IMG/VR virus record: IMGVR_UViG_3300017911_001490
Span: 16,598-80,597 of that record
Source: a virus
Lineage: Duplodnaviria; Caudoviricetes
Strand: one strand, 5' to 3'
Length of the DNA: 64,000 nt
Made by a program: the position numbers and the translations under genes. The notes under the pieces were generated by a model, which saw only the letters and a list, made by a program, of their open reading frames with translations, was not told where the DNA came from and made no database searches. Every line of letters starts with the position of its first letter. Within the stretch, counting starts at the first letter, position 1. This document shows positions 1 through 64,000 of this stretch, one piece after another.

Positions 1-2
1 TA

Positions 3-206
3 GTTCGTTCCTCTTGGGGTGGTCTGTCGCAGAACAGGATGCACACCATGATTCCTCATATAATTCTGTAGCTTGACGCCTTCATCATACGAGAGATGTA
101 CAGAGTCACCCTTCTTCATTGCAGACAAGACCTCACTCCACCTGGAAGAATTATTACGCAAGGGAGGTATTGGTATTCCTCTTTCTATAATTACAGTGGT
201 GTTCAT
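3..206 (-). CDS. Hypothetical small phage protein, truncated by window edge (MNTTVIIERGIPIP...MKKGDSV)
   Basis: ATG at 206 overlaps the stop of the 203..829 ORF (ATGA); frame stays open to the edge; not in the ORF track. Confidence 0.6.
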   Translation of the reverse strand, partial: MNTTVIIERGIPIPPLRNNSSRWSEVLSAMKKGDSVHLSYDEGVKLQNYMRNHGVHPVLRQTTPRGTN

Positions 207-829
207 TTACTGAATGCTATGCACGCAGGTAGTATGCGTTCCAGTTGCCTGTCCTGTTCAATGGTTAGCTTGGTGCGATCCTTATGGAAGTCTGTCTTTG
301 GCTTATTGCCGAATTTCCAGACAGCCACATCTGTACCACATACCTCATTGATCTGCTCGAGGAGTCCATCCACCTCATCTTGCTTGTCAGCAGGGACGAG
401 AGAGAAGTCCACGACACAGGATGTTGTCTCCGTGACTGAGTTCTTGACAAATGCTTCACCTGTTATGGCAACGATCCGTTCCCTGGTCTTGTCGTCGAAC
501 TCACCATATCCTCCCTCCTTGACCTGCACGGACATTTGATGAGGCACACCATAAGTCTGACCCTTGAAGCGAAACATCTTTGGTCTGTCTGCCGCTCGGT
601 TATTGAGTACCATTTCCCGAACAACACGATGAATTACTCGGGACTTATCAATGAGTTCCTTACCTTCAGCCGCTTTCAGTTTGCCCATGTAGTTATCATT
701 GAGGGCTTGTTGTATTGTTGTGTCAGAAGAACTGCTGGCATCAATAACTGTTACCCTGTCCCCTGACGATGTTTTTGGTGGAGGAGCAGATTGAGCCTGC
801 TTCTTCCTTCTTTCTTCTAAACGAGACAT
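203..829 (-). CDS. Hypothetical protein directly downstream of the PRTRC cassette
   Basis: 208 aa ORF starting 4 nt after the ThiF stop; no recognised motif. Confidence 0.75.
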   Translation of the reverse strand: MSRLEERRKKQAQSAPPPKTSSGDRVTVIDASSSSDTTIQQALNDNYMGKLKAAEGKELIDKSRVIHRVVREMVLNNRAADRPKMFRFKGQTYGVPHQMSVQVKEGGYGEFDDKTRERIVAITGEAFVKNSVTETTSCVVDFSLVPADKQDEVDGLLEQINEVCGTDVAVWKFGNKPKTDFHKDRTKLTIEQDRQLERILPACIAFSK

Positions 830-833
830 ATTT

Positions 834-1508
834 CTATGTCCTTTCTATGTTTATGGGGTTACATATACCCTTTGATATATCAAAGAATACACCCCGTTTT
901 GTTATTTGTTTGAAGCGCGTCATCTCCCACACCATGTGGCATGCTTGAATAGCAACTTCATTGTTGATGAAAAGGTCTTGGCGAGCTAGGTGATCCGTGC
1001 AGGTAGGCACATCATCTTCCTCCTCCTCGCCATCCCATAACTGAGGGTTCTCCTCGTATGGGTTAGGTAGTTCACCCTTGAACTGACCAAGCAATACTTG
1101 ACCTGATGTCCGAGCATTACCGCAATCCATAAGGTACGCACCCTCTCGATACCATGACTTGGCAATAGCTTTGCGTGATGCCTTGGTATCCACACAAGAT
1201 ATAACAAGATCGAACTGACCCGATGAGGGTGCTTTAGACTCACGATGTGACCAATTCAGATGGAAGTAATCATTCACCCTCCTGGTCAACACCTTTGCCT
1301 TATTCTGTCCGACATCACACGGGAAGAATGCCTGTCTACCCACATTGTAGTGGGATACTACATCAGGATCGAAGGCAGTAACATATATCTTACCATGGTT
1401 AAGTCTAACCAACTCGTTGTTTATCTTTGCTAAACCATTGATGACATGGCTACCTGTGCCACCACAACCATACACACCAATGTTTCTTATTGTTTTATTC
1501 CGTATCAT
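834..1508 (-). CDS. PRTRC-type ThiF family protein (E1-like adenylating enzyme)
   Basis: GVYGCGGTGS nucleotide-binding loop, D-x-D-x-V-S-x-x-N-x-x-RQ, G-x-NKA, VISCVD, MDCGN, GQVLLG and PTC...QDLFIN, as in PRTRC ThiF proteins. Confidence 0.9.
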   Translation of the reverse strand: MIRNKTIRNIGVYGCGGTGSHVINGLAKINNELVRLNHGKIYVTAFDPDVVSHYNVGRQAFFPCDVGQNKAKVLTRRVNDYFHLNWSHRESKAPSSGQFDLVISCVDTKASRKAIAKSWYREGAYLMDCGNARTSGQVLLGQFKGELPNPYEENPQLWDGEEEEDDVPTCTDHLARQDLFINNEVAIQACHMVWEMTRFKQITKRGVFFDISKGICNPINIERT

Positions 1509-2103
1509 CTAGCACCTCCCTTAGTGTTATTTCTGTTTGTTTTAGTCGGTTACGAGGAGTTGGCATATAGTTGAATGCTGACATATAGAATGCCTCTTCA
1601 TACTCTAACCAACCCTTGCGCTTGGGGCAGTAGGTGACATCAAGGTCAGGCAATGCTGTCCTGACACCACAATGTCCCATCAGTCCATTAGCTGAGTGAA
1701 CATCAGTCCCCCTGTATGGATAGTCATACACTTTACTGTCCTCTTCGGGTAGGAAGTTAGGATCATTCCTGTTCACCACCACCACATGAAGGTTCTGCTT
1801 GCGGAGAATAAACACCAAACCCGGATGCGAGTACATGCGTCTATCTGCGCGTGATAGTATGATCTTCCTTCTGCATGGCTTCTTGTACCATATAATGCAC
1901 TGATTCTTCTGATACCATAGGACATTAGGTAGAACTACTGGTTGAATCATTCGCCCATTGTTAGTAATAGCATCAAAGCAGGCAGGCGTGAGTGTCCGTG
2001 GGTTCACCCAATCTCCATCTGTGTTCTTGTCATAGGCAACGGCAAAGGTTTCCCTGTCGTCACCATAGATCATTATACTGTGTTTAGCTTCAATCGTTTG
2101 CAT
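1495..2103 (-). CDS. PRTRC system protein B-like (prokaryotic E2 family D)
   Basis: Position just upstream of ThiF; IIWYKKPCRR, HPGLVF, Y-x-YPY...N-G-x-x-x-x-C pattern and C-terminal EEAFYMSAF. Confidence 0.7.
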   Translation of the reverse strand: MQTIEAKHSIMIYGDDRETFAVAYDKNTDGDWVNPRTLTPACFDAITNNGRMIQPVVLPNVLWYQKNQCIIWYKKPCRRKIILSRADRRMYSHPGLVFILRKQNLHVVVVNRNDPNFLPEEDSKVYDYPYRGTDVHSANGLMGHCGVRTALPDLDVTYCPKRKGWLEYEEAFYMSAFNYMPTPRNRLKQTEITLREVLDDTE

Positions 2104-3082
2104 AAGATATATATTTTAGTAGGTCATAGAATGGACGGAACAGATAGATAACATGCTCCTGTGCCTCTCTAGTGTGTAGTGCGTAGCACAAGCTAGTGAC
2201 TTGCGCTCCTGTTTGTGTGTAATGAGCAGTCATATCCTCAGTGAGCATCCAAGATGGATCCCTTGGTCCACCCTGATCCGGTGGCCCCGATGTTAACTCC
2301 TCCCTTCGTATCCTCTCATGATCGGGACCATAGTCAGACATATGATGCAGGAACCTGGGGGCGTATCTGCCATACCATGGCTCCAAGCCATACCAAGTAC
2401 ATATCAACGCAGGGAATAAAAAGAATTCTTCATTAGATATATCAATAAACTCATACTGCTTGAGTTCATCAATGGCATCCTCGCATTCCCGTATCAGTCT
2501 GCATAGAATAGGTAATTCTGTTGGCTGGGTATGATTATCCTCCGCATTCGCCTTCACCCATTCCGGGCAGAACCCATAGTTGTGACCCTTCTTCTTCTTC
2601 CTCTCTACCTCGTTGTAGTCCACCCGTGGATTAGCATCAATGCAATCTTCGGTGAGGAACTCAATAGACCCATGAGCTTCCCAGTTGATAAGATCGGGAG
2701 TCAGTATATGTATCGGAGAGTGGGATAGTAAGTGTATCAAGTAATTGCCTATACTATACCTCTTGTGCAACATACTGAGGCGTGGTCCGACTGCATATCG
2801 TTGAACATCCTCGGGCTGATTGATGATTGGAATGAGCATGTCGTTCCACGGGTAGATATGTATCTCGTGCTTGAGGTCAGATATACTATGCAGTAGATCA
2901 GTGAGATAATCATCCTTACATTCATCTTGGTATGTCTTATATACTTTTCCTGTTCTTGTTATGTATTGAGGTAAGCTATGTGGTGTCTCTAAAAAAGGGG
3001 AGGCACGGTATGCGAGGGGAGTTCCCCCCGCATCCGAACATCCGTGATTGCTTGTTTTAGTTGGAACGAGTATCTCGACCAT
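2090..3082 (-). CDS. Protein in the PRTRC protein F position (function unknown)
   Basis: 330 aa ORF between C and B, matching the usual E-C-F-B-ThiF order; sequence similarity not evident by eye. Confidence 0.5.
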   Translation of the reverse strand: MVEILVPTKTSNHGCSDAGGTPLAYRASPFLETPHSLPQYITRTGKVYKTYQDECKDDYLTDLLHSISDLKHEIHIYPWNDMLIPIINQPEDVQRYAVGPRLSMLHKRYSIGNYLIHLLSHSPIHILTPDLINWEAHGSIEFLTEDCIDANPRVDYNEVERKKKKGHNYGFCPEWVKANAEDNHTQPTELPILCRLIRECEDAIDELKQYEFIDISNEEFFLFPALICTWYGLEPWYGRYAPRFLHHMSDYGPDHERIRREELTSGPPDQGGPRDPSWMLTEDMTAHYTQTGAQVTSLCYALHTREAQEHVIYLFRPFYDLLKYISYAND

Positions 3083-3091
3083 TGTCCGTAG

Positions 3092-3331
3092 TTATCCTTT
3101 AGTACCGTATTTCCCTGAGAATTGGTATCGTTCTGTTCCGCCACCTTTTCCTTCGAGTTTGTACTTTTCTTTACCTTTTTCATATATTGGTCCGGCTACC
3201 TCCCCGTTCGTTAATGATGGATATACACGCGCATACATTTGCATTACCTCCTCAGGCTTCAGGTGATGACCGAGATCTTCAAGCACCCGATCACCAAAGA
3301 TGAACTCACGCTTTGTTTTCTTCAGGCTCAT
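3092..3331 (-). CDS. PRTRC system protein C (prokaryotic ubiquitin-like protein)
   Basis: 79 aa; REF-x-F, PEEV-x-x-x-YA-x-x-YP-x-L-x-x-x-x-V-x-GP and the C-terminal GTKG typical of PRTRC C. Confidence 0.88.
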   Translation of the reverse strand: MSLKKTKREFIFGDRVLEDLGHHLKPEEVMQMYARVYPSLTNGEVAGPIYEKGKEKYKLEGKGGGTERYQFSGKYGTKG

Positions 3332-3876
3332 AGGTCATCCAAGGAGAGTGCTTTCTCCTCTGCTTTCTCCACTGCTGATTTGAGTTCTTTGGTTTCCTCC
3401 TTCGGTGGCTCCTCCTTCGGTTCCTCCTTTGCTAGTCGATCAGGCTCATCATCAAGATTCAAGTCCTGTTGGTCAGCACTCTCGGCTTGCTTCTTGCGCA
3501 GTTCCTCACGCTGTTCAGCTTGAGTCTTCTTCTTCCTGGTTGTTGTGGTCTTGCCCGCAGGCTTCTTGGCTGCCACCTTCTTCTGCTTTGAAGCAACTGC
3601 ACCCTTAAGTTTTTTCTCCAACTCAGTCAGGTCAGTTGTGGCGGCAACCATTGGGTCTCTGTAATCATTTAAGTCCTTAGTGAACTCCTGATTAGAGAAG
3701 TTGGATAGGTCATAGCACTTGGTCATAGCACCTTCTAGTACCTTACGATCCTCATCCGGTAGTTTGATGTCTTCCTTTAGTGTAGGAATGACAACTACAT
3801 GTAATAGTTCCCCGTCCAACTGGAGATCTATATTTAGTCTGTGTGTTTTTAGCAGTGGTATGTATTCAGTGATCAC
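3328..3876 (-). CDS. PRTRC system protein E-like
   Basis: N-terminal L-x-I...G-x-x-LHVVVIP, coiled middle and charged low-complexity tail; immediately upstream of protein C. Confidence 0.7.
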   Translation of the reverse strand: MITEYIPLLKTHRLNIDLQLDGELLHVVVIPTLKEDIKLPDEDRKVLEGAMTKCYDLSNFSNQEFTKDLNDYRDPMVAATTDLTELEKKLKGAVASKQKKVAAKKPAGKTTTTRKKKTQAEQREELRKKQAESADQQDLNLDDEPDRLAKEEPKEEPPKEETKELKSAVEKAEEKALSLDDL

Positions 3877-4274
3877 TGTATTTTCCTTTCTCTGTGTGTT
3901 TTAGTGTAGACCTTGCGAATGTCTTCCTCTTTGAATCCATCCCCGTAGTCTTTTAATTTGTCTACCGTGTCGTCTATGCAACCCGTGTAGTATGCTTCAT
4001 GGTTTTCTAGTTCGCGCAGTATGATCTGCTCGGCAGTATGATCCTTCTTGTCCTGGGCAATGCCTTCATCAATGATGTTACTGATACCATCTATTAGTTC
4101 TTTGCTCTTGTCCTTGGGTACAATCATACCTGCACCAAGATGTGAATACTTCACACCCTCGACAGCATGATCTTTGAACTGGAACTTATTGAATGCATAG
4201 AAAGCACCGAGGCGCTTCATCAATGCGTCATGCTTATCCTCAATATAATCAGACAGGTATTTTAATCCCTCCAT
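3873..4274 (-). CDS. Hypothetical phage protein (GAFYAFNKFQF motif)
   Basis: 133 aa ORF, stop overlaps next start. Confidence 0.75.
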   Translation of the reverse strand: MEGLKYLSDYIEDKHDALMKRLGAFYAFNKFQFKDHAVEGVKYSHLGAGMIVPKDKSKELIDGISNIIDEGIAQDKKDHTAEQIILRELENHEAYYTGCIDDTVDKLKDYGDGFKEEDIRKVYTKTHRERKIQ

Positions 4275-4705
4275 AATCTCATTTCCTCCGCTGTCTCAAT
4301 CCTATCGTGGATAGGAAAGGCACCAGGATACCTGATCCCTATCTTTGTGTAGACATAATCGCTCACTCTTGAGTCTCCCGAGTAACAGAAGTTACCCCCG
4401 AACATCACGCTACCTCGTTCTTCAGTGTCCATGGTTCTATCGTCCTCGATCCATTCATCCTTGAGTTCAGAATCCATACGCTTACGAGCGGGCACTACCT
4501 TACAGTACTTGCTCACCTTATCGCATATCAATAAGACTGGGTAGTACTTGTCGCAGGGTTCGAAGGGACATTTAAATCCATGCACATCATGAGTAATATT
4601 CACAATGCACACACCCTTGTATTTATATTTGGGACCACTGAACCCACCCTTCGTGGTGTCAGTGCCAAGGAAGCGATCTGTGTATATACTAGCTATAAGC
4701 CCCAT
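4262..4705 (-). CDS. Hypothetical phage protein
   Basis: 147 aa ORF tightly packed in the leftward operon. Confidence 0.75.
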   Translation of the reverse strand: MGLIASIYTDRFLGTDTTKGGFSGPKYKYKGVCIVNITHDVHGFKCPFEPCDKYYPVLLICDKVSKYCKVVPARKRMDSELKDEWIEDDRTMDTEERGSVMFGGNFCYSGDSRVSDYVYTKIGIRYPGAFPIHDRIETAEEMRLWRD

Positions 4706-4931
4706 CGTAGCAATGCCTCACTCCTACACATTCAATTCTTGAAACCAGGTCTTCGCGACGCTCTCTAACAAGGTAATCCCTGTCGGTCTCGCATCGTACC
4801 ATACATGAGGTAAGTCCGAGTTCATCAATCGCAATGATCTTAGATACATTGAGTGTAAGAACCCTTGATTCCTCCTTACCCTTTGCTCCAGTATAGTGGT
4901 GCCTGATGGTTAATAACTGAGTGCCAGTCAT
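4689..4931 (-). CDS. Small hypothetical protein, weak FlbD-like pattern
   Basis: 80 aa; LNVSKIIAIDE...YLVRERREDL. Confidence 0.55.
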   Translation of the reverse strand: MTGTQLLTIRHHYTGAKGKEESRVLTLNVSKIIAIDELGLTSCMVRCETDRDYLVRERREDLVSRIECVGVRHCYDGAYS

Positions 4932-5794
4932 AGTTCGTCCATACCTCCTTCTTTCTTTGGAGCCTTGAGTGCCTCGATCTCGGCATTGTGCTTCATGATG
5001 AATTGCTTCATCTTCTCACGCTTGGTATCCAAGTCCTTGATCTGGTCTTGCATCTCCTTGACGACCTTGCCTAGCTTGAGTACAGCATTCTCGAGCTTCT
5101 CAGCTATATCTATATCGAACTGTTCAGTGATACCACCTTGTAGCTTGTCGATCTCTTCTACCATTACCTCACGAACGAAGCATCTAAGCATACCGGTCAG
5201 TGTTGATCCATGAGACCCAGCTGGATACTGATGGTTGGCTAGCTCACTACCAAACTTAGCTTTACGCTTAGTGTTAGCCTTGGCTTCCTTGGCTTCCTCC
5301 ACCCTGTCGGGTATCTCCTTGACCTGTTGGTCAACCACCTGATCGACTGCCTCACGCTCTTCACGCTCGACTACTTCATCGTGTGTTTCTTCGTCATCAT
5401 CAATGAGGTTAGTAACATCCTCGTATGTTGAGTCATCATCCTTGACTTCCACCTTGTCAGCACCTGCACTGATAACAGGAGGTCGATCAAACTCACCAGC
5501 CATGGTACGCTTGATCCAGTCCTCATATATCTTTGATGCAATCTTGGCATAGAACTCCTTGCGTTGTGCTTCATCGCGTGGTGGTTCCTCACCTTCGGGC
5601 CAATATGGATTAACTGTACCATCTGCAAGTCTTGGCTTGATATACCTGGCGTGATCACCAAGGAAGAAGATTACATTGGTTAGTGATGGGTCGAGTGCGG
5701 TTAAGCACTTGTCTCGGAAACGAATCTTTACTTCGTCCCCGTGTTTTGCTTGGCGCTCATCGAGTGCCTGATTTAGTTTTTCAGAGAGTTGCAT
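4928..5794 (-). CDS. Hypothetical acidic, coiled-coil protein
   Basis: ORF track 4928..5926; ATG at 5794 preferred because it limits overlap with the ATPase gene to 14 nt. Confidence 0.7.
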   Translation of the reverse strand: MQLSEKLNQALDERQAKHGDEVKIRFRDKCLTALDPSLTNVIFFLGDHARYIKPRLADGTVNPYWPEGEEPPRDEAQRKEFYAKIASKIYEDWIKRTMAGEFDRPPVISAGADKVEVKDDDSTYEDVTNLIDDDEETHDEVVEREEREAVDQVVDQQVKEIPDRVEEAKEAKANTKRKAKFGSELANHQYPAGSHGSTLTGMLRCFVREVMVEEIDKLQGGITEQFDIDIAEKLENAVLKLGKVVKEMQDQIKDLDTKREKMKQFIMKHNAEIEALKAPKKEGGMDEL

Positions 5795-6524
5795 ATTCTT
5801 CTGATCTCTTTCTATTTTTGATTTGGATTGTGCTAAGAAGTTTGTCGAAATGCTTGAGTGAGGCGCGAATATCCCCACCGCCGTTTTCAACGCAGATCTT
5901 AGCGGCTTTAAGTTTAAGTTGAGCATTCTCTTGTTGATCTAATCCTTTCTTCATCTGCACACCCTTGAGGCACATCTTAGCCAACTCCATAGCTAGCTCA
6001 TTCGTGGGTATCTTGGGTGCTTCATACCATGTGAACCTAGATGCAAACTTCGGAGTCAAATGCTCAGCTTTCTCCGATGCGGACATCTTTTCGTACTGGT
6101 CCCGATGGCAGGGTTTCTTGTTGGTAGTTACAAAGAACGCGTATGACTTAGGCATCTCGTCCTGTAACCAGTCATGCAGGCTGTCCTGCACATCCTTGTG
6201 AATCCGATCACACTCATTGACGAGTATCGCTCGGCGAGAGCCGAACATAAATGTCGTAGCTGACTGCTCCTCCCATTCATTAGTGGTAGCCATAGTTACC
6301 TTGGCACCCTTAACGACTTGGTAATTGAGCGGATCATCTATCCATTCCCTCGCGAGCATGTCAGCGATAGTGGTCTTACCTCTGCCTTCATACCCATGAA
6401 TCAGAAAACACCGCTCGCCCTCGGGCTGTCCGAGTGCGTATCTGATGAGTTCTGCTTGGGTTCGGATTCCGTCTCCGATGAGTTCATCGAAGCTTTTGGG
6501 TTTCCATGTTGCCCATGTTTGCAT
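5781..6524 (-). CDS. Clamp-loader-like (DnaX/RFC/RarA clade) AAA+ ATPase
   Basis: WKPKSFDELIG N-terminal motif, Walker A GYEGRGKTT, Walker B ILVNECD, FFVTTN sensor, ASRF, GGGDIRASL. Confidence 0.8.
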   Translation of the reverse strand: MQTWATWKPKSFDELIGDGIRTQAELIRYALGQPEGERCFLIHGYEGRGKTTIADMLAREWIDDPLNYQVVKGAKVTMATTNEWEEQSATTFMFGSRRAILVNECDRIHKDVQDSLHDWLQDEMPKSYAFFVTTNKKPCHRDQYEKMSASEKAEHLTPKFASRFTWYEAPKIPTNELAMELAKMCLKGVQMKKGLDQQENAQLKLKAAKICVENGGGDIRASLKHFDKLLSTIQIKNRKRSEEYATL

Positions 6525-6697
6525 CTCTTATTATTTTCCTCCTCCCACTGACGGATGTACTCCTCGTGGTTTAGTTGCTCCATTGGTTTATCTTCCAACG
6601 GAAGGTTATCTTTTGCTCCTCTCATAGCGTCACGAATCATGTGTTGCACGAAGACCTCCGGGTCCCCGATAACATCCTTTATGTGCGTTACACCCAT
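6401..6697 (-). CDS. Hypothetical protein
   Basis: Fills the gap between neighbours but overlaps the ATPase start by about 120 nt. Confidence 0.45.
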   Translation of the reverse strand: MGVTHIKDVIGDPEVFVQHMIRDAMRGAKDNLPLEDKPMEQLNHEEYIRQWEEENNKRCKHGQHGNPKASMNSSETESEPKQNSSDTHSDSPRASGVF

Positions 6698-6993
6698 GCG
6701 AACGACTCCAGTTCATCGACATGCTCACCATCCTGACTAAGCATAAGCCAATCATACTCGGCGGGTATCCGTTCGAGTAGTTCATGTATGAATTGCCTGG
6801 AGTATCCTTTCTCCTCCAACCACTTGCGTGTATGCTTATTGGATGCAGGAGTCGTATCGAACATAATACCCTCTTTATGATTGAGGTGTAGTACGAAGAA
6901 ATCCTCCTCCTTCTTGAGTAGTAGGAAGTCACTTGGTTTGATGTGAGCGATATCAAGATGCAGAAAGGAGAATGCCTCCTGTACTGCGATCAT
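6688..6993 (-). CDS. Hypothetical protein
   Basis: 101 aa ORF in a coupled operon. Confidence 0.65.
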   Translation of the reverse strand: MIAVQEAFSFLHLDIAHIKPSDFLLLKKEEDFFVLHLNHKEGIMFDTTPASNKHTRKWLEEKGYSRQFIHELLERIPAEYDWLMLSQDGEHVDELESFAWV

Positions 6994-7643
6994 CGGAACT
7001 TATACTTGGTATGCATACCCAAGTTCATCGACTGCTTACGGGTTAGATCGTAAGGAAGGGTAGCATCCACCACGACAACACCCTCCCAGTTGTATGCAGA
7101 GGAAGTATTGATCGCCACGAAATGCTCATAAGCATTCTTCATAGTATCAAACGCATCCTGTGCATGCACCTCGTCCCACACAGGGAACCGAGTAACTAGC
7201 CAAGGCATATCAATCATTGACACGAAAGGATCAATAGTTGGCACATCGACTAGGTTGCGGCGCGTGTGATAGTCGACAATCGACCCATCGCATACATCAA
7301 TGATGCAAGCACGCTTATGCCTACATGAGTACTCCAAGTCCCACCACTGCACGGTGGAATGAGAGCATTGCAGAAGGACATCATGTATGTCTCCCTGTAC
7401 TCCCTTGTCCATGCGTGTATACTCTTGGGTCTTCCGGTTATATACATTCCCATTACGATCCATGAGGACACGGTCTGAGTCCGCATCCATCTTAGGTGTA
7501 CCCACCTCATGGTCACGCACGGTGACATGGTATGAGCCTGTGGTTGCACGGGGTGGATACCCGATGCTCACATTGATACGGTCAAGTATATGTCCCTGCG
7601 TGTAGTGATGTCCTTTATGGGGCATAGTTAATGGTGTGACCAT
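6990..7643 (-). CDS. Hypothetical protein
   Basis: ORF track 6990..7670; ATG at 7643 has GGAGG upstream and TAATG coupling. Confidence 0.7.
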   Translation of the reverse strand: MVTPLTMPHKGHHYTQGHILDRINVSIGYPPRATTGSYHVTVRDHEVGTPKMDADSDRVLMDRNGNVYNRKTQEYTRMDKGVQGDIHDVLLQCSHSTVQWWDLEYSCRHKRACIIDVCDGSIVDYHTRRNLVDVPTIDPFVSMIDMPWLVTRFPVWDEVHAQDAFDTMKNAYEHFVAINTSSAYNWEGVVVVDATLPYDLTRKQSMNLGMHTKYKFR

Positions 7644-7870
7644 TAGTGTACCTCCTCCATATGGTAACAATCAGCATCCTGGTTGGCGGGCCAATCCATT
7701 GGATGTTTACTTGGGGTGATGAAGTAATTACCTACGGCTTTACCATCAAACATTACCGTGCCTGACGCTTGCCCATCCCTTACCTCTACTGATATTTGCT
7801 CGACAGCATTACCCAACTGCGTGGGTGTCATATCCGTCAAGCCTGTGTCTATTTCAACTTGTAGCTTCAC
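7643..7870 (-). CDS. Hypothetical protein
   Basis: 75 aa ORF in a coupled operon. Confidence 0.65.
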   Translation of the reverse strand: MKLQVEIDTGLTDMTPTQLGNAVEQISVEVRDGQASGTVMFDGKAVGNYFITPSKHPMDWPANQDADCYHMEEVH

Positions 7871-8108
7871 TTGCTACCTCCTTTACTACTTGTATTGATT
7901 TTAGTCGTTTAGCTTCCATTAGAAGCATTATGAATGCACTATACTCGGGGTACCTGTTCTTAATGAACGAGGGAACCTCAAGCATTGTGATTTCACCCGT
8001 TGTAACACGGGTTTCTCCTGCCTTCTCAATGCAGTCCAAGATTATCTTGGCATCACTGAGGGCATCTATTCTATCGGGATCGCAGTCCCAAACCTGTACT
8101 CTATCCAT
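7854..8108 (-). CDS. Hypothetical protein
   Basis: 84 aa ORF in a coupled operon. Confidence 0.65.
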   Translation of the reverse strand: MDRVQVWDCDPDRIDALSDAKIILDCIEKAGETRVTTGEITMLEVPSFIKNRYPEYSAFIMLLMEAKRLKSIQVVKEVASEATS

Positions 8109-60285: not shown

Positions 60286-60827
60286 GCAAAGTTAATTCTG
60301 AGTATATAGAACAAGAGCTTAATAGAATTTCTGACATCCCTGACCAAGAGGAAAGGGTTCGGGCGGCTCAGCAACTACAATCACTAATAGTAGCTCAGGA
60401 GAACGAAGGTAAGCAACAGATCGAGCAGGCTAAAGCACTACCCGAGATGATGCAGAATGTGCAGGACAAGGATGATTATGTTAAGGATGTGGCAAAAGAT
60501 TTTCCAGGACTGACTGCCGGTGCGGCTCTAGGCATGAAGGTTATGCCTACATTACCGAATCCAGTAGCTAATTTTATATCCAAAGGCTTAGGTGCGGCGG
60601 GGGGTGGATTAATTGGGTCAGAGGTTACAGGTCCGTATGTCAAACCATACACCGACGCTATATACGATGCGGTAACTGATCCTGAGAATAAAAGAGTAAT
60701 TGCACTCGGAGATGACTTCGACCAAGGACAACCACTTATGGGTAGTCCTTCAATAATCCAACAGCAGGATCCCTACATGGATTCATCATCCACGGGAGTA
60801 ATGCCCGTATCACCTCTTCGTCCATGA
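60282..60827 (+). CDS. Hypothetical protein with glycine-zipper-like segment
   Basis: 181 aa; GLTAGAALG...GLGAAGGGLIG. Confidence 0.6.
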   Translation: MSKVNSEYIEQELNRISDIPDQEERVRAAQQLQSLIVAQENEGKQQIEQAKALPEMMQNVQDKDDYVKDVAKDFPGLTAGAALGMKVMPTLPNPVANFISKGLGAAGGGLIGSEVTGPYVKPYTDAIYDAVTDPENKRVIALGDDFDQGQPLMGSPSIIQQQDPYMDSSSTGVMPVSPLRP

Positions 60828-63800
60828 GTCCGGCAGACTGGATAAGGAAGCAGTACCTCGATGAGCATAACATCGATGTATCTCAATTCTCGGATGAACA
60901 ATTAATATTCAAGATAGGTTCGGATGCTGAGAAGAGTGGACTTACTATGCCTGACTTAAAGGCTAAGTACGGAGATGAATTTACAAATATATATTACGAC
61001 TCAAAGAATAGACCCGATCCAAACCAAGGATTCCTCGATGAGATAGGTTCAGGATTTAAGTCACAAGGGTACGGACTGCTATCCATGATTCCTGGTTCTG
61101 CGGGTCTTGTTGCAGGTAAGTTAGGATTCGAAGATGCTGAATCATACCTCATGGATAAGACTGCGGAGATTGCATCTCGCGGAGCAAATGATCGACCATC
61201 TGTCGAGAGATTCTCGGATGTAAGATGGGATAATCCTAGTGAGATTGCTAGGTTCTTCCTTGGTGGTATGGGATCGGCGGCTCCATCTGCACTTGAGTCC
61301 GCGGCGGCATTTGGACTAGGTGGGGGTATAGGTTATGGTATTGCCCGTAATCGCATTAAGAGTGGAATAAGAGAAACGATTGCAAATAAGGTAAAGGATC
61401 AGGGTGCCAAGGAGAGACTTACTGAGGTCTACCAAGAGATGGCAAAGATCAAGGCAAGAGAAGGTTTTAACACGGGTGCTAATATTGGTCTTGGTGCTTC
61501 GTCCTTGAGCTTAGGTACTGGTGAAATTTACTCAGAGTTATATCCTAGCACACAGCTCGACCCGAGTGATCCTGATTATATAGACCCCGATACCGCCCGT
61601 AATTTATCTTTAGGGTTTGGTGCATTGTCAGGTAGCCTAGATATGATACCCGCCTCTCGCCTATTAGGAAAACTAACAGGTCAAGGTGAGGGTAAAGCAA
61701 AGAGTTACTTGAAGCGGTTAATGCTCGCTTTACCTGAAGGTGTATTCCTCGAAGGTAGCACAGAAGCCACACAAGAGTTCATTAACATGGCGGCCGAGAA
61801 GTACGGCAGGGGTGAAGAGCTAGAGTTTAATAACCAAGAGATTGCACGAATGCTTGACGCGGGTGTACTTGGTGCTATTGGGGGCACTCAGTTTGCCGCT
61901 ATTGGTGCGATTAGAGGACCGAAGGATACAAGTTTACCCGACACCCCACCTGAACAGATCGCATCCGATGATCCAACTATTCAACAACAGGAAGACCTGC
62001 TTGAGGAATTAAGAAAAGAAGATGAGAGTCAACCAGGCAGATATGAGAGAGGAGAGAATGTACAGGACGCTTACGGAAATAAGGGAGTCATCAAGGAGAC
62101 CACAGCTAATACTGCATTAGTTGAAATGGATGATGGTTCTATCCGTGAATATACTCATGATCGGCTTGCACTTGCATTAGACGAGGAGGTCATTGAAACA
62201 CCATCTGTTAATGTTACACCTACCGCAACCGAATCAAGTGACTTCGGTGTTAATAAAGATGGTAAATTACCCCCAGCACTAGCTGGTGCAAAACCAGGAT
62301 ACAACTACGGTCAACGAAAAATTAATCTTAACTTCGAGAATGACATAGCGAAGGCATTATACATTGTTGGTAGTGGTCAGAACTCACGAAGAAAGCAAGA
62401 TTATTTAAACTGGCTCAAGTCTCAAGGGGTGGAAAATCCTCAAGAATTAGCTAAGCAGATTAGGGATGAGATAAAGGCACAAGCTAAAGCGGGTAAAAAT
62501 ACCGTTAATGTTAAATCCCCATTCACAATCGCCCCTGCAGATCCACAAGTTATAGTACCCGATGAAGTAGTAGACCCTCCAGCACCTGAAGTGCCAAAGG
62601 TTGAAATGATTAACGGGGAGAATAAAATCGAGGTAGAACAGGACAGGGAGAAGGATGTAAGGAAGCTTGTTAAGTATTACCGAGAATGGTCAAAGAGTGG
62701 AAAGTTTTACAAGAACAAGCGGAGGGCTGCATCCCAAGGAGTTGGAGCATGGGGCAGTAATGATGGGGATCGCATTAAACTCAAGCTGGGTACGGATAAG
62801 GATATATATAACAAGAGGAATGTTAATATACTCAAGGAACTCGGATACTTAGATAGTAAGGGAGAATGGGTAAAACCTACGGTTGCTGATAAGGAATTCG
62901 AGAAAAAGGATTTACAAGAAAAGAGAGACTCAAGGCTCAACCTAATCAATGAACTAAAGAAAAGAGATGACAACTGGTTGGCTCCCGGCAGAAAAGTACA
63001 GGATCGTCTTGGTGAGTTGGGTGAGATTGAGAAGGTAACCCGTGATGGGTATGTGGTTATCAATGGGGAGAAGTATGACCCGAAGCATTTATATAAAGTC
63101 AAGCCTCCCAAGCCCGTCCCTGGTAGTAATAATAATTCAAAACGCAACGATCAGCTAGAGGTCCTTGATCCATTCCCTGAGAACATGGAGTTTAAAGGGA
63201 AGAGTATTGAATTGGGATACAAGAACGGCAATGGTGTAAGAGCTAAAAACCGAAAGGTTGGAGTACCCATATCATCAAGGGAACAACTTAAAGATACACT
63301 CATTAAGATACTCGCTAAAGAAACCCAAAAGGGTGGAACACAGAAGCCTCTATTAACCAATTTAGATAAGATTGTAGTTGATGGTGCTGACTATTTCGCA
63401 GGGTACGAAAAACAAGGTGAGTATTATTCGTTTGGTGGTATCCATATAACAAAGGATGAGATTGCTGAGTATATTATAGAAAGCACACCTAATGACCAGA
63501 AGTCTTCGATTGGTGATTCTTTCACCATAAATGTAAATAGGCTTGGTGGAGGAAAGACTCCCGGAACAGATCAGGAAGTAGAGTATCTAGCAACCTTGCA
63601 TGATGAAATTTTGCCGGGAGAGGATTATACGCCAGGTATTTTCCTTGGTCAAATAAGTAGCCTTAATCAAGTCATAGACATGGCGACGGGGAAACTTCAA
63701 CCTACCTACGGAGGCTTGGCTGAGGATGAGGTCAGTATGGTAGCAAGTTTCCGTAGCTTGATTAGTCAAAGGAGTAAGACTAAGGCAATAGGCATATTTG

Positions 63801-64000
63801 GACATCCACAGACTGGTGAGATTAGATTGATGACCTTGCGACTAGATAGTACAGGGAGGGTCGAAGCATTTGATTCAACATTTAAGGCATCCAAGACCAA
63901 GCAATACAAGCGATTAATTGATATGCAGTCAAAGGGATGGTCATTGCAAGGCAAGTTTGGGACCAACGATATAGCGAAAGATATAGATATTCTATACACA
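60824..64000 (+). CDS. Very large internal virion/ejection protein, truncated by window edge (at least 1059 aa)
   Basis: ATG at 60824 overlaps the previous stop; frame open at the points I translated (start, 62.0, 62.6, 62.9 kb, end); absent from the ORF track presumably because it has no stop; N-terminal glycine-zipper-like helices. Confidence 0.8.
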   Translation, partial: MSPADWIRKQYLDEHNIDVSQFSDEQLIFKIGSDAEKSGLTMPDLKAKYGDEFTNIYYDSKNRPDPNQGFLDEIGSGFKSQGYGLLSMIPGSAGLVAGKLGFEDAESYLMDKTAEIASRGANDRPSVERFSDVRWDNPSEIARFFLGGMGSAAPSALESAAAFGLGGGIGYGIARNRIKSGIRETIANKVKDQGAKERLTEVYQEMAKIKAREGFNTGANIGLGASSLSLGTGEIYSELYPSTQLDPSDPDYIDPDTARNLSLGFGALSGSLDMIPASRLLGKLTGQGEGKAKSYLKRLMLALPEGVFLEGSTEATQEFINMAAEKYGRGEELEFNNQEIARMLDAGVLGAIGGTQFAAIGAIRGPKDTSLPDTPPEQIASDDPTIQQQEDLLEELRKEDESQPGRYERGENVQDAYGNKGVIKETTANTALVEMDDGSIREYTHDRLALALDEEVIETPSVNVTPTATESSDFGVNKDGKLPPALAGAKPGYNYGQRKINLNFENDIAKALYIVGSGQNSRRKQDYLNWLKSQGVENPQELAKQIRDEIKAQAKAGKNTVNVKSPFTIAPADPQVIVPDEVVDPPAPEVPKVEMINGENKIEVEQDREKDVRKLVKYYREWSKSGKFYKNKRRAASQGVGAWGSNDGDRIKLKLGTDKDIYNKRNVNILKELGYLDSKGEWVKPTVADKEFEKKDLQEKRDSRLNLINELKKRDDNWLAPGRKVQDRLGELGEIEKVTRDGYVVINGEKYDPKHLYKVKPPKPVPGSNNNSKRNDQLEVLDPFPENMEFKGKSIELGYKNGNGVRAKNRKVGVPISSREQLKDTLIKILAKETQKGGTQKPLLTNLDKIVVDGADYFAGYEKQGEYYSFGGIHITKDEIAEYIIESTPNDQKSSIGDSFTINVNRLGGGKTPGTDQEVEYLATLHDEILPGEDYTPGIFLGQISSLNQVIDMATGKLQPTYGGLAEDEVSMVASFRSLISQRSKTKAIGIFGHPQTGEIRLMTLRLDSTGRVEAFDSTFKASKTKQYKRLIDMQSKGWSLQGKFGTNDIAKDIDILYT

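What the first reader, a model, noticed from the sequence alone, without database searches (positions are those of the whole stretch)
834..3876. Phage-encoded ubiquitin-like conjugation cassette (PRTRC E-C-F-B-ThiF) inside the early/accessory arm
Seen: five contiguous, translationally coupled genes: E-like, a 79 aa Ubl ending GTKG, a 330 aa F-position gene, an E2-family-D-like protein with a candidate catalytic Cys (NGLMGHCG), and a ThiF/E1 with an intact GxGGxG loop and PTC Cys. Established: PRTRC cassettes are described mainly from plasmids and integrative elements and have no known substrate; other bacterial E1/E2/Ubl systems (CBASS Cap2, Bil) act in antiphage defence. Inference: here the cassette is co-oriented with phage genes and has no mobile-element borders, so the phage may conjugate its own Ubl to host or phage proteins, for takeover or as counter-defence.
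Basis: partly seen in the sequence, partly recalled or inferred. Interest (0 to 1): 0.9.

Follow-up and report, generated by a model that had tools for sequence, protein, structure and literature searches.

The report
Protease-less phage ubiquitin-like tagging cassette
A complete 80-kb marine phage carries a cut-down version of the known but never-tested bacterial "PRTRC" ubiquitin-like tagging gene set, whose tag is made in finished form so that no trimming protease is needed; similar sets are already annotated in cultured phages, so it is a good experimental lead and not a first.

Summary
Window 834-3876 (minus strand) carries five coupled genes:
- a PRTRC-type ThiF E1 (TIGR03736, 203 bits, above cut-off);
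- a Prok-E2_D protein with an invariant Cys145;
- a 330-aa gene in the F position;
- a 79-aa Prok_Ub protein ending in GTKG;
- a gene whose N-terminal domain matches PRTRC E (hhalign 96.9%).

The record is a complete phage genome with direct terminal repeats. Contigs from an independent study bridge both cassette borders, so it is not a chimeric join.

All five complete relatives (TerL 66-88% identical) keep the cassette.

The cassette is not canonical PRTRC. The whole genome has no JAB peptidase (protein A) and no ParB. Its Ubl stops exactly at the conserved G-x-K-G. In JAB-bearing phage cassettes that motif is mostly followed by a 62-100 aa tail. Across about 50 viral loci, a missing JAB goes with a tail-less Ubl.

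My reading is a one-way E1-to-E2 tagging system expressed within the replication arm. Its target is unknown.

The claim that this is phage-specific and new is overstated. RefSeq already annotates PRTRC E-C-F-B-A-ThiF in Ralstonia phage Dina, two papers mention prophage copies, and this scan has reported such phage cassettes many times on other DNA.

Verdict: new variant of a known, uncharacterised kind. Interest is moderate.

The parts
3328..3876 (-). PRTRC-E-like protein, 182 aa. It has an N-terminal globular domain, a Lys/Ala-rich basic middle and an acidic tail ending LSLDDL.
   Evidence: No direct HMM hit. A profile of 8 clade members against 10 PRTRC E proteins gives hhalign 96.9%, E 1.9e-10 over residues 3-111.
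3092..3331 (-). Ubiquitin-like protein (PRTRC C type), 79 aa, made in finished form and ending in the conserved Y-G-T-K-G with a free C-terminus.
   Evidence: Pfam Prok_Ub 49.6 bits (GA 25). TIGR03738 38.4 bits, below its 45.95 cut-off. G76, K78 and G79 are invariant, and every clade relative stops at this motif.
2989..3183 (-). Candidate overprinted small gene X, 64 aa, in the +1 frame over the last 30 codons of the Ubl and the first 31 of F. It ends ...LPSHTVPPLF.
   Evidence: The alternative frame is open in all 8 clade members and ends in a shared LP(S/P)xxxPPLF-type motif. A free-standing 55-65 aa ORF with a similar C-terminus lies between C and F in other cassettes, and the motif ends the tail of phage Dina's 129-aa C protein. 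Caveat: stop-free +1 stretches of 60 or more codons cover 15% of coding positions in this genome, and the L002 copy has no ATG/GTG/TTG start.
2090..3082 (-). F-position protein, 330 aa. Residues 1-51 are predicted disordered and the rest is an alpha/beta, mostly helical domain. It probably corresponds to PRTRC F (Pfam alpha-hel2). Role unknown; I propose a specificity or scaffold factor.
   Evidence: No Pfam, NCBIfam, PHROG or PADLOC hit. A profile search of 1.84 billion representatives finds only 31 proteins. hhalign to PRTRC F sets is weak, although the same motif aligns both times (E 0.12; E 0.0029 at 10.6%). AF2 model pLDDT 75.7; best PDB match Z 2.9. Two metatranscriptome contigs lie at 2190-2603.
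1495..2103 (-). E2-like protein (Prok-E2_D), 202 aa, candidate catalytic Cys145, with a clade-invariant D134-x-H136 nine residues upstream.
   Evidence: Pfam Prok-E2_D 39.4 bits (GA 25). TIGR03737 34.8 bits, far below its 131.45 cut-off. Invariant residues are in A3 and the alignment with canonical B proteins is A12. AF2 pLDDT 68.9. Foldseek finds nothing. About half of the VIA-wide top 50 are E2/UEV chains, but only at Z 3-4 over residues 58-190.
834..1508 (-). ThiF-type E1 adenylating enzyme of the PRTRC family, short form of 224 aa. It has the GCGGTGS nucleotide loop, the D47/D49/N55/R58/Q59/D107 site and a candidate thioester Cys170.
   Evidence: TIGR03736 203.1 bits (cut-off 144.75) and Pfam ThiF 50.4 bits. 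These residues are invariant over 20 clade members (A1) and over 17 PRTRC ThiFs that include canonical ones (A14).
203..829 (-). Coupled downstream gene of unknown function, 208 aa. Not a fixed member of the cassette.
   Evidence: No family hit. Homologues sit directly after ThiF in L001 but elsewhere in L002 and L003.
3873..4274 (-). DUF7659 protein, 133 aa, coupled directly upstream of E. A possible recurrent neighbour of the cassette.
   Evidence: Pfam DUF7659 97.7 bits. A homologue lies directly after ThiF in the unrelated viral record L053, and others lie near the cassette in L058 and L002.
5781..6524 (-). AAA+ clamp-loader-like protein (context: replication module upstream of the cassette).
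   Evidence: PHROG 168 clamp loader, E 4.7e-12; dnaX_nterm 27.7 bits. It is conserved upstream of the cassette in 7 relatives.

Best explanation
The region is a streamlined PRTRC-derived ubiquitin-like protein conjugation cassette that belongs to the core early and replication arm of a lineage of about 72-81 kb marine phages.

Proposed mechanism:
1. The ThiF-type E1 binds ATP and adenylates the free C-terminal Gly79 of the 79-aa Ubl.
2. The Ubl is passed as a thioester to E1 Cys170 and then to Cys145 of the E2-like protein.
3. It is then attached to lysines of one or more targets. The F-position protein, the E-like protein and possibly the small overprinted protein X act as specificity or scaffold factors.

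The Ubl is translated already ending at the family's conserved G-x-K-G, so no maturation protease is needed. The genome encodes no JAB peptidase, so tagging would also be irreversible by the phage's own means.

Shown here: domain identities, conserved catalytic residues, the finished Ubl end, absence of JAB and ParB, inheritance within the lineage, and integrity of the assembly. Inferred: every chemical step.

The target is unknown. The cassette's recurrent placement beside replication and partition genes makes a DNA-replication or segregation-linked target my first guess. A host-takeover or defence-related target remains open.
For: - Domain identities: TIGR03736 203 bits above cut-off; Prok_Ub and Prok-E2_D above Pfam GA; E homology by hhalign 96.9%.
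- Gene order E-C-F-B-ThiF matches the RefSeq-annotated PRTRC order in phage Dina, minus A. There A is DUF2016 plus Prok-JAB and F is alpha-hel2.
- E1 ATP-site residues and Cys170 are invariant across clade and canonical PRTRC ThiFs.
- E2 Cys145 is invariant in the clade.
- The Ubl ends at YGTKG in all clade relatives. The same G(T/R)KG lies inside the longer C proteins of Dina and BgVeeders33.
- All 26 JAB-less viral loci where the motif was found have a Ubl ending exactly at G-x-K-G. For three more JAB-less loci the script found no motif, and L004's zero tail comes, not from the script. Of 27 JAB-bearing loci, 22 have tails of 62-100 aa.
- No Prok-JAB and no ParB_N anywhere in the complete genome.
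- The cassette is present in all five complete genomes with TerL 66-88% identity.
- No promoter-like or strong terminator-like site lies inside the cassette.
- Independent contigs bridge both borders.
Against: - No biochemical data exist for any PRTRC system in the literature I could search.
- The E2 and Ubl score below the NCBIfam PRTRC_B and PRTRC_C cut-offs.
- The E2 model is of middling confidence. Its active-site loop is below pLDDT 50, and structural matches to E2s are individually weak at Z 3-4.
- The clade lacks the histidine downstream of the Cys that canonical PRTRC B proteins keep (Iyer et al. 2006, PMC1779556).
- A related bacterial pathway (Bub) works through oxyesters, not thioesters (PMC11601596), so the assumed chemistry may be wrong.
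- F has no established homology or fold.
- Evidence for expression is limited to two short metatranscriptome contigs that could be carried-over DNA.
Confidence: 0.68

Rival explanations
1. The system is a sulfur carrier or adenylation system and does not tag proteins. The E1 and Ubl would work like ThiF/ThiS or MoeB/MoaD, making a Ubl thiocarboxylate that donates sulfur for a nucleic-acid or cofactor modification, perhaps linked to the phage's DNA-modification genes.
For: The E1 gives weak hits to ThiF and MoeB adenylyltransferases (35, 28 and 16 bits). A DpdA base-exchange enzyme and an SNF2 helicase lie a few kb downstream in the same arm. The Ubl is a small beta-grasp protein ending in Gly, as sulfur carriers are.
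Against: Those hits are far below the family cut-offs (159-275 bits), while the PRTRC ThiF model is passed. The cassette keeps an E2-family protein with an invariant Cys, which sulfur-carrier systems lack. I noticed no rhodanese, cysteine desulfurase or thiazole/molybdopterin synthase partner in the genes I scanned.
Confidence: 0.07
2. It is a prophage-carried anti-phage defence system, for superinfection exclusion. Like Bil, Bub or CBASS Cap2, the cassette would tag proteins of an incoming competitor phage and benefit the lysogen, not the phage's own lytic programme.
For: Every bacterial E1/E2/Ubl pathway characterised so far acts in antiphage immunity (PMC10097602, PMC10557695 and PMC11601596). 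The phage is probably temperate, since an integrase lies in the same arm. Other PRTRC-bearing phages are temperate or prophages.
Against: PADLOC gives only weak E1-domain hits of about 20 bits or less and nothing for the other proteins. The genes are translationally chained inside a long early/replication operon with no promoter-like site of their own. They are kept in every complete genome of the lineage. That pattern is unlike the variable, self-contained 'moron' islands in which defence systems usually sit, a point that rests on my general knowledge.
Confidence: 0.15
3. It is a maintenance or partition module, as the PRTRC name and the 'ParB/ThiF partitioning cassette' label imply. It would serve segregation or copy control of an extrachromosomal prophage, with Ubl tagging only a regulatory detail.
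For: Canonical PRTRC is defined with a ParB homologue. ParB lies directly upstream of E in L054 and L035. Cassettes in viral contigs sit beside DnaB, DnaN, ParB or a clamp loader. PMC13366799 calls it a partitioning cassette.
Against: This genome has no ParB_N domain at all and does have a tyrosine integrase. The partition role of PRTRC is an annotation habit, with no experiment behind it in the papers found. This rival overlaps the best explanation and does not exclude it, because the target could be a replication or segregation protein.
Confidence: 0.1

Closest known systems
PRTRC system (ParB-Related, ThiF-Related Cassette; NCBIfam TIGR03734-03742). It equals operon type 6d of Iyer, Burroughs and Aravind 2006 (PMC1779556) and is annotated in Ralstonia phage Dina, NC_055026.
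   Same: - Same gene order, E-C-F-B-ThiF.
- The E1 passes the PRTRC ThiF model.
- The Ubl and E2 belong to the same Pfam families (Prok_Ub, Prok-E2_D).
- The E N-terminal domain is homologous.
- The Ubl carries the same G-x-K-G conjugation motif.
- There is a small X-type ORF or tail between C and F.
- The system is equally uncharacterised experimentally.
   Different: - No protein A (DUF2016 plus JAB) and no ParB anywhere in the genome.
- The Ubl ends at the motif instead of carrying a 62-100 aa tail.
- The E1 is a shortened form (224 aa against about 250-290).
- The E2 and Ubl score below the NCBIfam cut-offs.
- The E2 lacks the downstream His and has an upstream D-x-H instead.
- F is not recognisably alpha-hel2.
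- X is overprinted on C and F instead of standing alone.
Other JAB-less PRTRC-like cassettes in IMG/VR viral records (for example L032, L034, L037-L044, L047, L053, L054).
   Same: E, a Ubl ending at G-x-K-G, a small ORF, F, B and ThiF with B directly abutting ThiF; no JAB.
   Different: They sit in phages with an unrelated terminase. ThiF identity is only 28-39%. Most carry DnaN, DnaB or ParB next to E instead of a clamp loader and SNF2. Their small ORF is free-standing.
Bil, Bub and CBASS Cap2/Cap3 bacterial Ubl-conjugation pathways (antiphage defence).
   Same: E1 adenylation domain, an E2-type carrier and a Ubl or target ending in Gly. All are mobile and phage-conflict-associated.
   Different: Not members. 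PADLOC gives only weak E1-domain matches of about 20 bits or less, to E1-E2 fusion models. Here the E1 and E2 are separate, there is no cGAS-like or effector partner, no deconjugating peptidase, and the genes are carried by the virus inside its early operon.

Membership tests
PRTRC system (NCBIfam TIGR03734-03742) | ThiF-family E1 reaching the TIGR03736 cut-off | tested here: met
   203.1 bits against a cut-off of 144.75.
PRTRC system (NCBIfam TIGR03734-03742) | Protein C (Ubl) reaching the TIGR03738 cut-off | tested here: not met
   38.4 bits against a cut-off of 45.95. Pfam Prok_Ub is passed at 49.6 bits against GA 25.
PRTRC system (NCBIfam TIGR03734-03742) | Protein B (E2-like) reaching the TIGR03737 cut-off | tested here: not met
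   34.8 bits against a cut-off of 131.45. Pfam Prok-E2_D is passed at 39.4 bits against GA 25.
PRTRC system (NCBIfam TIGR03734-03742) | Protein A (DUF2016 plus JAB peptidase) | tested here: not met
   No Prok-JAB match at E <= 1 in the complete 80.6-kb genome, while the control genomes matched. tblastn with Dina protein A finds nothing. B abuts ThiF with a 14-nt overlap.
PRTRC system (NCBIfam TIGR03734-03742) | ParB homologue | tested here: not met
   No ParB_N match at E <= 1 in the complete genome.
PRTRC system (NCBIfam TIGR03734-03742) | Protein E | tested here: inconclusive
   No hit in the hmmscan of NCBIfam or Pfam, including PF19556. Profile-profile homology to the PRTRC E N-terminal domain is 96.9%, E 1.9e-10.
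PRTRC system (NCBIfam TIGR03734-03742) | Protein F (alpha-hel2) | tested here: inconclusive
   No HMM hit. hhalign gives E 0.12 and E 0.0029 (10.6%) on one shared motif. The gene sits in the syntenic position.
PRTRC system (NCBIfam TIGR03734-03742) | Gene order E-C-F-B-(A)-ThiF | tested here: met
E1-E2-Ubl protein conjugation (general) | Ubl with an exposed C-terminal glycine | tested here: met
   The protein ends ...YGTKG followed by a stop. G76, K78 and G79 are invariant in 9 sequences.
E1-E2-Ubl protein conjugation (general) | E1 nucleotide-binding site and a conserved cysteine | tested here: met
   G14-C-G-G-x-G-S20, D47, D49, N55, R58, Q59, D107 and C170 are invariant.
E1-E2-Ubl protein conjugation (general) | UBC-fold E2 with a catalytic cysteine | tested here: inconclusive
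   The Pfam family match and invariant C145 are positive. The AF2 model has pLDDT 68.9. Foldseek finds nothing, and VIA-wide is enriched in E2 chains only at Z 3-4, rmsd 3.5-4.5 over about 90 residues.
E1-E2-Ubl protein conjugation (general) | ATP- and Cys-dependent thioesters and isopeptide adducts | not testable with these tools
   Requires biochemistry.
Known defence Ubl systems (CBASS Cap2, Bil, 6A-MBL) | Match to the system's models | tested here: not met
   PADLOC gives only E1-E2 fusion models at about 20 bits or less over the first ~100 residues of the E1 (E1 residues 3-115), and nothing for the other proteins. NF058523 scores 34 bits against a cut-off of 320.
ThiF/MoeB sulfur-carrier adenylyltransferases | Reaching an equivalog cut-off | tested here: not met
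   35, 28 and 16 bits against cut-offs of 159, 275 and 266.

The most novel reading that the evidence does not exclude
The phage runs a one-way protein-tagging system aimed at DNA-replication or segregation machinery. That target could be the sliding clamp, its loader, or a DNA-bound partner recruited through the E protein's basic region and acidic tail. This would be a viral, prokaryotic counterpart of PCNA ubiquitination. A seventh component, X, would be encoded by overprinting on the Ubl and F genes.
Probability: 0.13. Interest if true: 0.85.

Novelty: new variant of a known kind. Interest (0 to 1): 0.5.

Why it matters
PRTRC (operon type 6d of Iyer et al. 2006) is one of the predicted bacterial ubiquitin-like conjugation systems. 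I found no experimental study of it in the searchable literature. The related Cap2, Bil and Bub pathways have all proved to be real conjugation machines.

This phage variant is close to the smallest form the system takes. It has separate small E1 and E2 proteins, a 79-aa tag that needs no processing, and no deconjugating enzyme. That makes it a convenient set for reconstitution.

The link between a missing JAB and a finished Ubl gives a clear, testable account of what protein A does in the full system.

Carriage by every complete genome of a phage lineage, inside the replication arm, argues that the virus itself uses the tagging. If so, it would be a rare case of a bacterial virus bringing its own ubiquitin-like modifier.

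The result is tempered because phage copies are already annotated in RefSeq and this scan has met similar cassettes many times.

Tried and rejected
- blastn of the cassette against 50,697 phage records: no match.
- tblastn of the E2 against the same set: no match.
- The search for related loci with the single ThiF protein: nothing. The alignment-based scan worked.
- Word-indexed search with the F alignment: 3 hits only. Exhaustive profile search: 31 proteins, none bridging to canonical PRTRC F.
- Foldseek and VIA-wide on the F model: no fold match, best Z 2.9. Foldseek on the E2 model: nothing. ESM Atlas on F: no lead.
- Scan of GTDB species genomes: no close relative, best 35%, so no host inference.
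- DnaN in the phage's own genome: none.
- ThiF in 12 TerL-related IMG/VR records: none. All are fragments, 26-82% complete, so this says nothing about absence.
- A beta-clamp-binding motif in E tails: my pattern was written after seeing the sequences. It hits 9 of 58 distinct upstream ORFs taken as E, not including this window's E, against 0.45 in shuffles, and the large Dina-like group lacks it. I keep it as a lead only.
- A chimeric join to a plasmid or ICE: rejected.


Full report
OBSERVATION

- E-like, 3328-3876
- Ubl, 3092-3331
- F-position gene, 2090-3082
- E2-like, 1495-2103
- ThiF, 834-1508

They are chained by 4-14 nt overlaps or short gaps. The chain extends to a DUF7659 gene upstream and a 208-aa gene downstream.

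HMM scans gave these results:
- The ThiF passes the NCBIfam PRTRC ThiF model (203.1 bits, cut-off 144.75).
- The Ubl passes Pfam Prok_Ub (49.6 bits, GA 25).
- The E2 passes Pfam Prok-E2_D (39.4 bits, GA 25).
- The Ubl and E2 fall below the stricter NCBIfam PRTRC_C and PRTRC_B cut-offs.
- E and F gave no direct hit in Pfam, NCBIfam, PHROGs or PADLOC.

IS IT REALLY IN A PHAGE, AND IS THE ASSEMBLY SOUND?

The window is bases 16598-80597 of an 80,597-bp IMG/VR virus record. The record has a 141-bp direct terminal repeat and a CheckV completeness of 100%. The window encodes a large terminase, an SU10-type portal and head-fibre and tail proteins.

The stretch occurs in seawater metagenomes. Contigs from a second sample, and from a different study holding a strain about 95% identical, cover all of window 1-8000. 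They bridge the g208/ThiF and E/DUF7659 junctions.

RELATIVES

ThiF homologues fall into two groups. About 40 short forms (215-243 aa, 44-61% identical) come mostly from marine metagenomes, several on 78-81 kb contigs. The usual PRTRC ThiFs (about 250-290 aa) are 41% identical or less.

An alignment-based scan of IMG/VR returned 80 loci. In L001-L009 and L012 the genes C-F-B-ThiF, usually with E and a clamp loader upstream and an SNF2 helicase downstream, are syntenic with the window. The four complete records among them have terminases 66-88% identical to the window's.

The cassette is therefore inherited within a lineage of about 72-81 kb phages. It evolves faster than the terminase: ThiF is 43-61% identical, the E2 22-40% and F 23-34%. 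Twelve further terminase relatives lack ThiF, but all are fragments.

WHAT IS ALREADY KNOWN

Phage-borne PRTRC is not new as an annotation.
- RefSeq annotates PRTRC proteins E, C, F, B, A and ThiF in Ralstonia phage Dina. There A is DUF2016 plus Prok-JAB, F is alpha-hel2 and E is PF19556.
- Burkholderia phage BgVeeders33 has the same set, unnamed. PMC13366799 describes it in prophage AB2 as a 'ParB/ThiF partitioning cassette'.
- A 2026 preprint notes PRTRC protein B as a variation hotspot in a Phocaeicola prophage.
- The system is operon type 6d of Iyer et al. 2006 (PMC1779556).

I found no experimental study of it. The characterised bacterial pathways are Cap2, Bil and Bub. This scan has also reported phage PRTRC-like cassettes many times on other DNA.

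WHAT IS DIFFERENT HERE

1. The complete genome has no Prok-JAB and no ParB_N domain. B abuts ThiF with no room for protein A.

2. The Ubl stops at the family's conserved motif. In the clade all copies end ...YG(T/Q)KG. In Dina and BgVeeders33 the same G(R/T)KG is followed by about 60 more residues. Across the viral loci:
   - All 26 JAB-less cassettes where the script located the motif have a Ubl with zero residues after G-x-K-G. In three more JAB-less loci the script found no motif. L004's zero tail is read, because the script picked an internal GKKG there.
   - Of 27 JAB-bearing cassettes, 22 have 62-100 aa tails.
   This fits protein A acting as the maturation protease, and probably also as the deconjugase. 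The present variant has dispensed with both roles.

3. The E1 is a shortened form but keeps every nucleotide-site residue and Cys170, which is invariant across 17 PRTRC ThiFs.

4. The E2 keeps an invariant Cys145. It lacks the His downstream of the Cys that canonical B proteins keep (F-T/S-H). Instead it has an invariant D134-x-H136 nine residues before the Cys. That spacing recalls the HPN-to-Cys spacing of classical E2s; the resemblance rests on my general knowledge and was not tested.

5. The E2 model has pLDDT 68.9 with a poorly defined active-site loop. Foldseek finds nothing. In the exhaustive VIA search about half of the top 50 chains are E2 or UEV proteins, but only at Z 3-4. The fold is therefore supported by the family match and only weakly by structure.

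6. E is a true PRTRC E relative (hhalign 96.9%) with the same build: an N-terminal domain, a Lys/Ala-rich basic stretch and an acidic tail.

7. F remains unassigned.
   - Its family has only 31 members among 1.84 billion representatives.
   - Profile comparisons with PRTRC F align the same short motif twice but are not significant.
   - The AF2 model (pLDDT 75.7, residues 1-51 disordered) has no PDB match.

A POSSIBLE SEVENTH GENE

A 64-codon ORF (2989-3183) lies in the +1 frame across the end of the Ubl gene and the start of F. The frame is open in all eight clade members and ends in a shared LP(S/P)xxxPPLF-type motif.

Other PRTRC cassettes have a free-standing 55-65 aa ORF with a similar C-terminus between C and F. 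In Dina that motif ends the tail of the C protein. The part of F that overlaps it is predicted disordered.

Against it: stop-free +1 stretches this long cover 15% of coding positions in this genome. One relative lacks a standard start codon. Part of the conservation is forced by the YGTKG codons. I list it as a candidate.

CONTEXT AND LIKELY ROLE

The cassette lies in a long leftward arm with no promoter-like or strong terminator-like site inside it. A clamp-loader-like AAA+ protein lies upstream. Downstream are an SNF2 helicase, a DpdA and an integrase.

In unrelated viral records the gene directly upstream of E is a DnaN sliding clamp (L034, L037, L041) or a ParB (L054, L035), and in L047 a DnaB helicase lies just upstream of E, one small ORF away. 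A tblastn census over the 95 loci held at that point, which include non-cassette loci, finds DnaB near 29, SNF2 near 11, DnaN near 9, a clamp loader near 7 and ParB near 7.

The partner changes while the replication or partition theme stays. This is association only, and phage early modules are rich in such genes anyway. This phage has no recognisable DnaN of its own.

MECHANISM I COMMIT TO (confidence 0.68)

- ATP-dependent adenylation of Gly79 by the E1.
- Thioester on Cys170, then transfer to E2 Cys145.
- Isopeptide attachment to target lysines, with F, E and possibly X giving specificity.
- No phage-encoded removal of the tag.

The chemistry is inferred. Bub shows that related systems can use oxyesters. 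The target is unknown. A sulfur-carrier role is unlikely, because an E2 with an invariant Cys is retained and the ThiF and MoeB models are missed by a wide margin.

VERDICT

This is a new variant (JAB-less and ParB-less, with a finished Ubl and a divergent E2 and F) of a known, uncharacterised kind. It is worth a bench test because it is minimal, but a specialist who knows the RefSeq phage annotations would not be surprised by it.

Noticed in passing
window 2989-3183 (-): A 64-codon +1-frame ORF overprinted on the Ubl 3' end and the F 5' end. It is open in all 8 clade relatives and ends in a shared ...LPSxxxPPLF motif. That motif resembles the C-terminus of a free-standing small ORF between C and F in other PRTRC cassettes, and the tail of phage Dina's C protein.
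   Followed up: partly
window 60824-64000 (+), continuing in G000:C1:1-8844: A giant ORF runs off the window end and continues through the terminal repeat into the start of the record. It has 1059 open codons in the window and 2947 at the record start, which overlap across the 141-bp repeat, so the protein has roughly 4000 residues.
   Followed up: no
G000:C1:9975-15389 (-), just left of the window: The same leftward arm goes on with an 882-aa SNF2-family helicase, a 295-aa unknown, a DpdA (7-deazapurine-in-DNA) enzyme and a tyrosine integrase. The SNF2 gene follows ThiF directly, or after one small ORF, in L002-L009 and lies about 1-3 kb downstream in L001 and L012.
   Followed up: partly
L034:5663-6757, L037:6303-7385, L041:5887-7170: In three JAB-less viral cassettes the gene immediately upstream of PRTRC E is a DNA polymerase III beta sliding clamp (three DnaN domains by Pfam). 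In others it is ParB, or DnaB lies close by.
   Followed up: partly
window 3328-3876 (-), C-terminal half of E: E proteins end in an acidic tail with a hydrophobic or aromatic last residue (LSLDDL here; DAGVDLY, TLDLF and IFELNF elsewhere), a build that recalls SSB-type acidic tips. Some relatives carry Q-x-[SD]-[LM]-F-like clamp-binding-type motifs (this window's E has a weaker QQDLNL). The pattern was defined post hoc and is absent from the Dina-like group.
   Followed up: partly
window 1495-2103 (-), residues 134-178 of the E2: The clade's E2 has an invariant D-x-H nine residues before the catalytic Cys. It lacks the His after the Cys that canonical PRTRC B proteins keep, so the conserved histidine has apparently moved.
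   Followed up: partly
L004:6632-8053, L005/L006:6647-8060: In one branch of the clade an extra 217-220 aa gene sits between E and the Ubl. A small ORF with a sigma-70 region-4-like helix-turn-helix (…RERVRQIE…ALRKLRHP…) lies just upstream of E.
   Followed up: no
window 2190-2603: Two short contigs from seawater metatranscriptome libraries of one study match the F gene with 3-4 mismatches each. This hints at transcription but could be carried-over DNA.
   Followed up: no
window 2869-2876 and 3084-3086: A strain about 95% identical, from another study, has a 1-nt deletion and a 1-nt insertion 7 nt apart in F (a compensated frameshift). It also has a 3-nt loss in the 9-nt spacer between the Ubl stop and the F start, which keeps the two genes in the same frame.
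   Followed up: no
window 3873-4274 (-): The DUF7659 gene coupled upstream of E also lies directly after ThiF in the unrelated viral record L053, and near the cassette in L058 and L002. It may be a recurrent accessory gene.
   Followed up: partly
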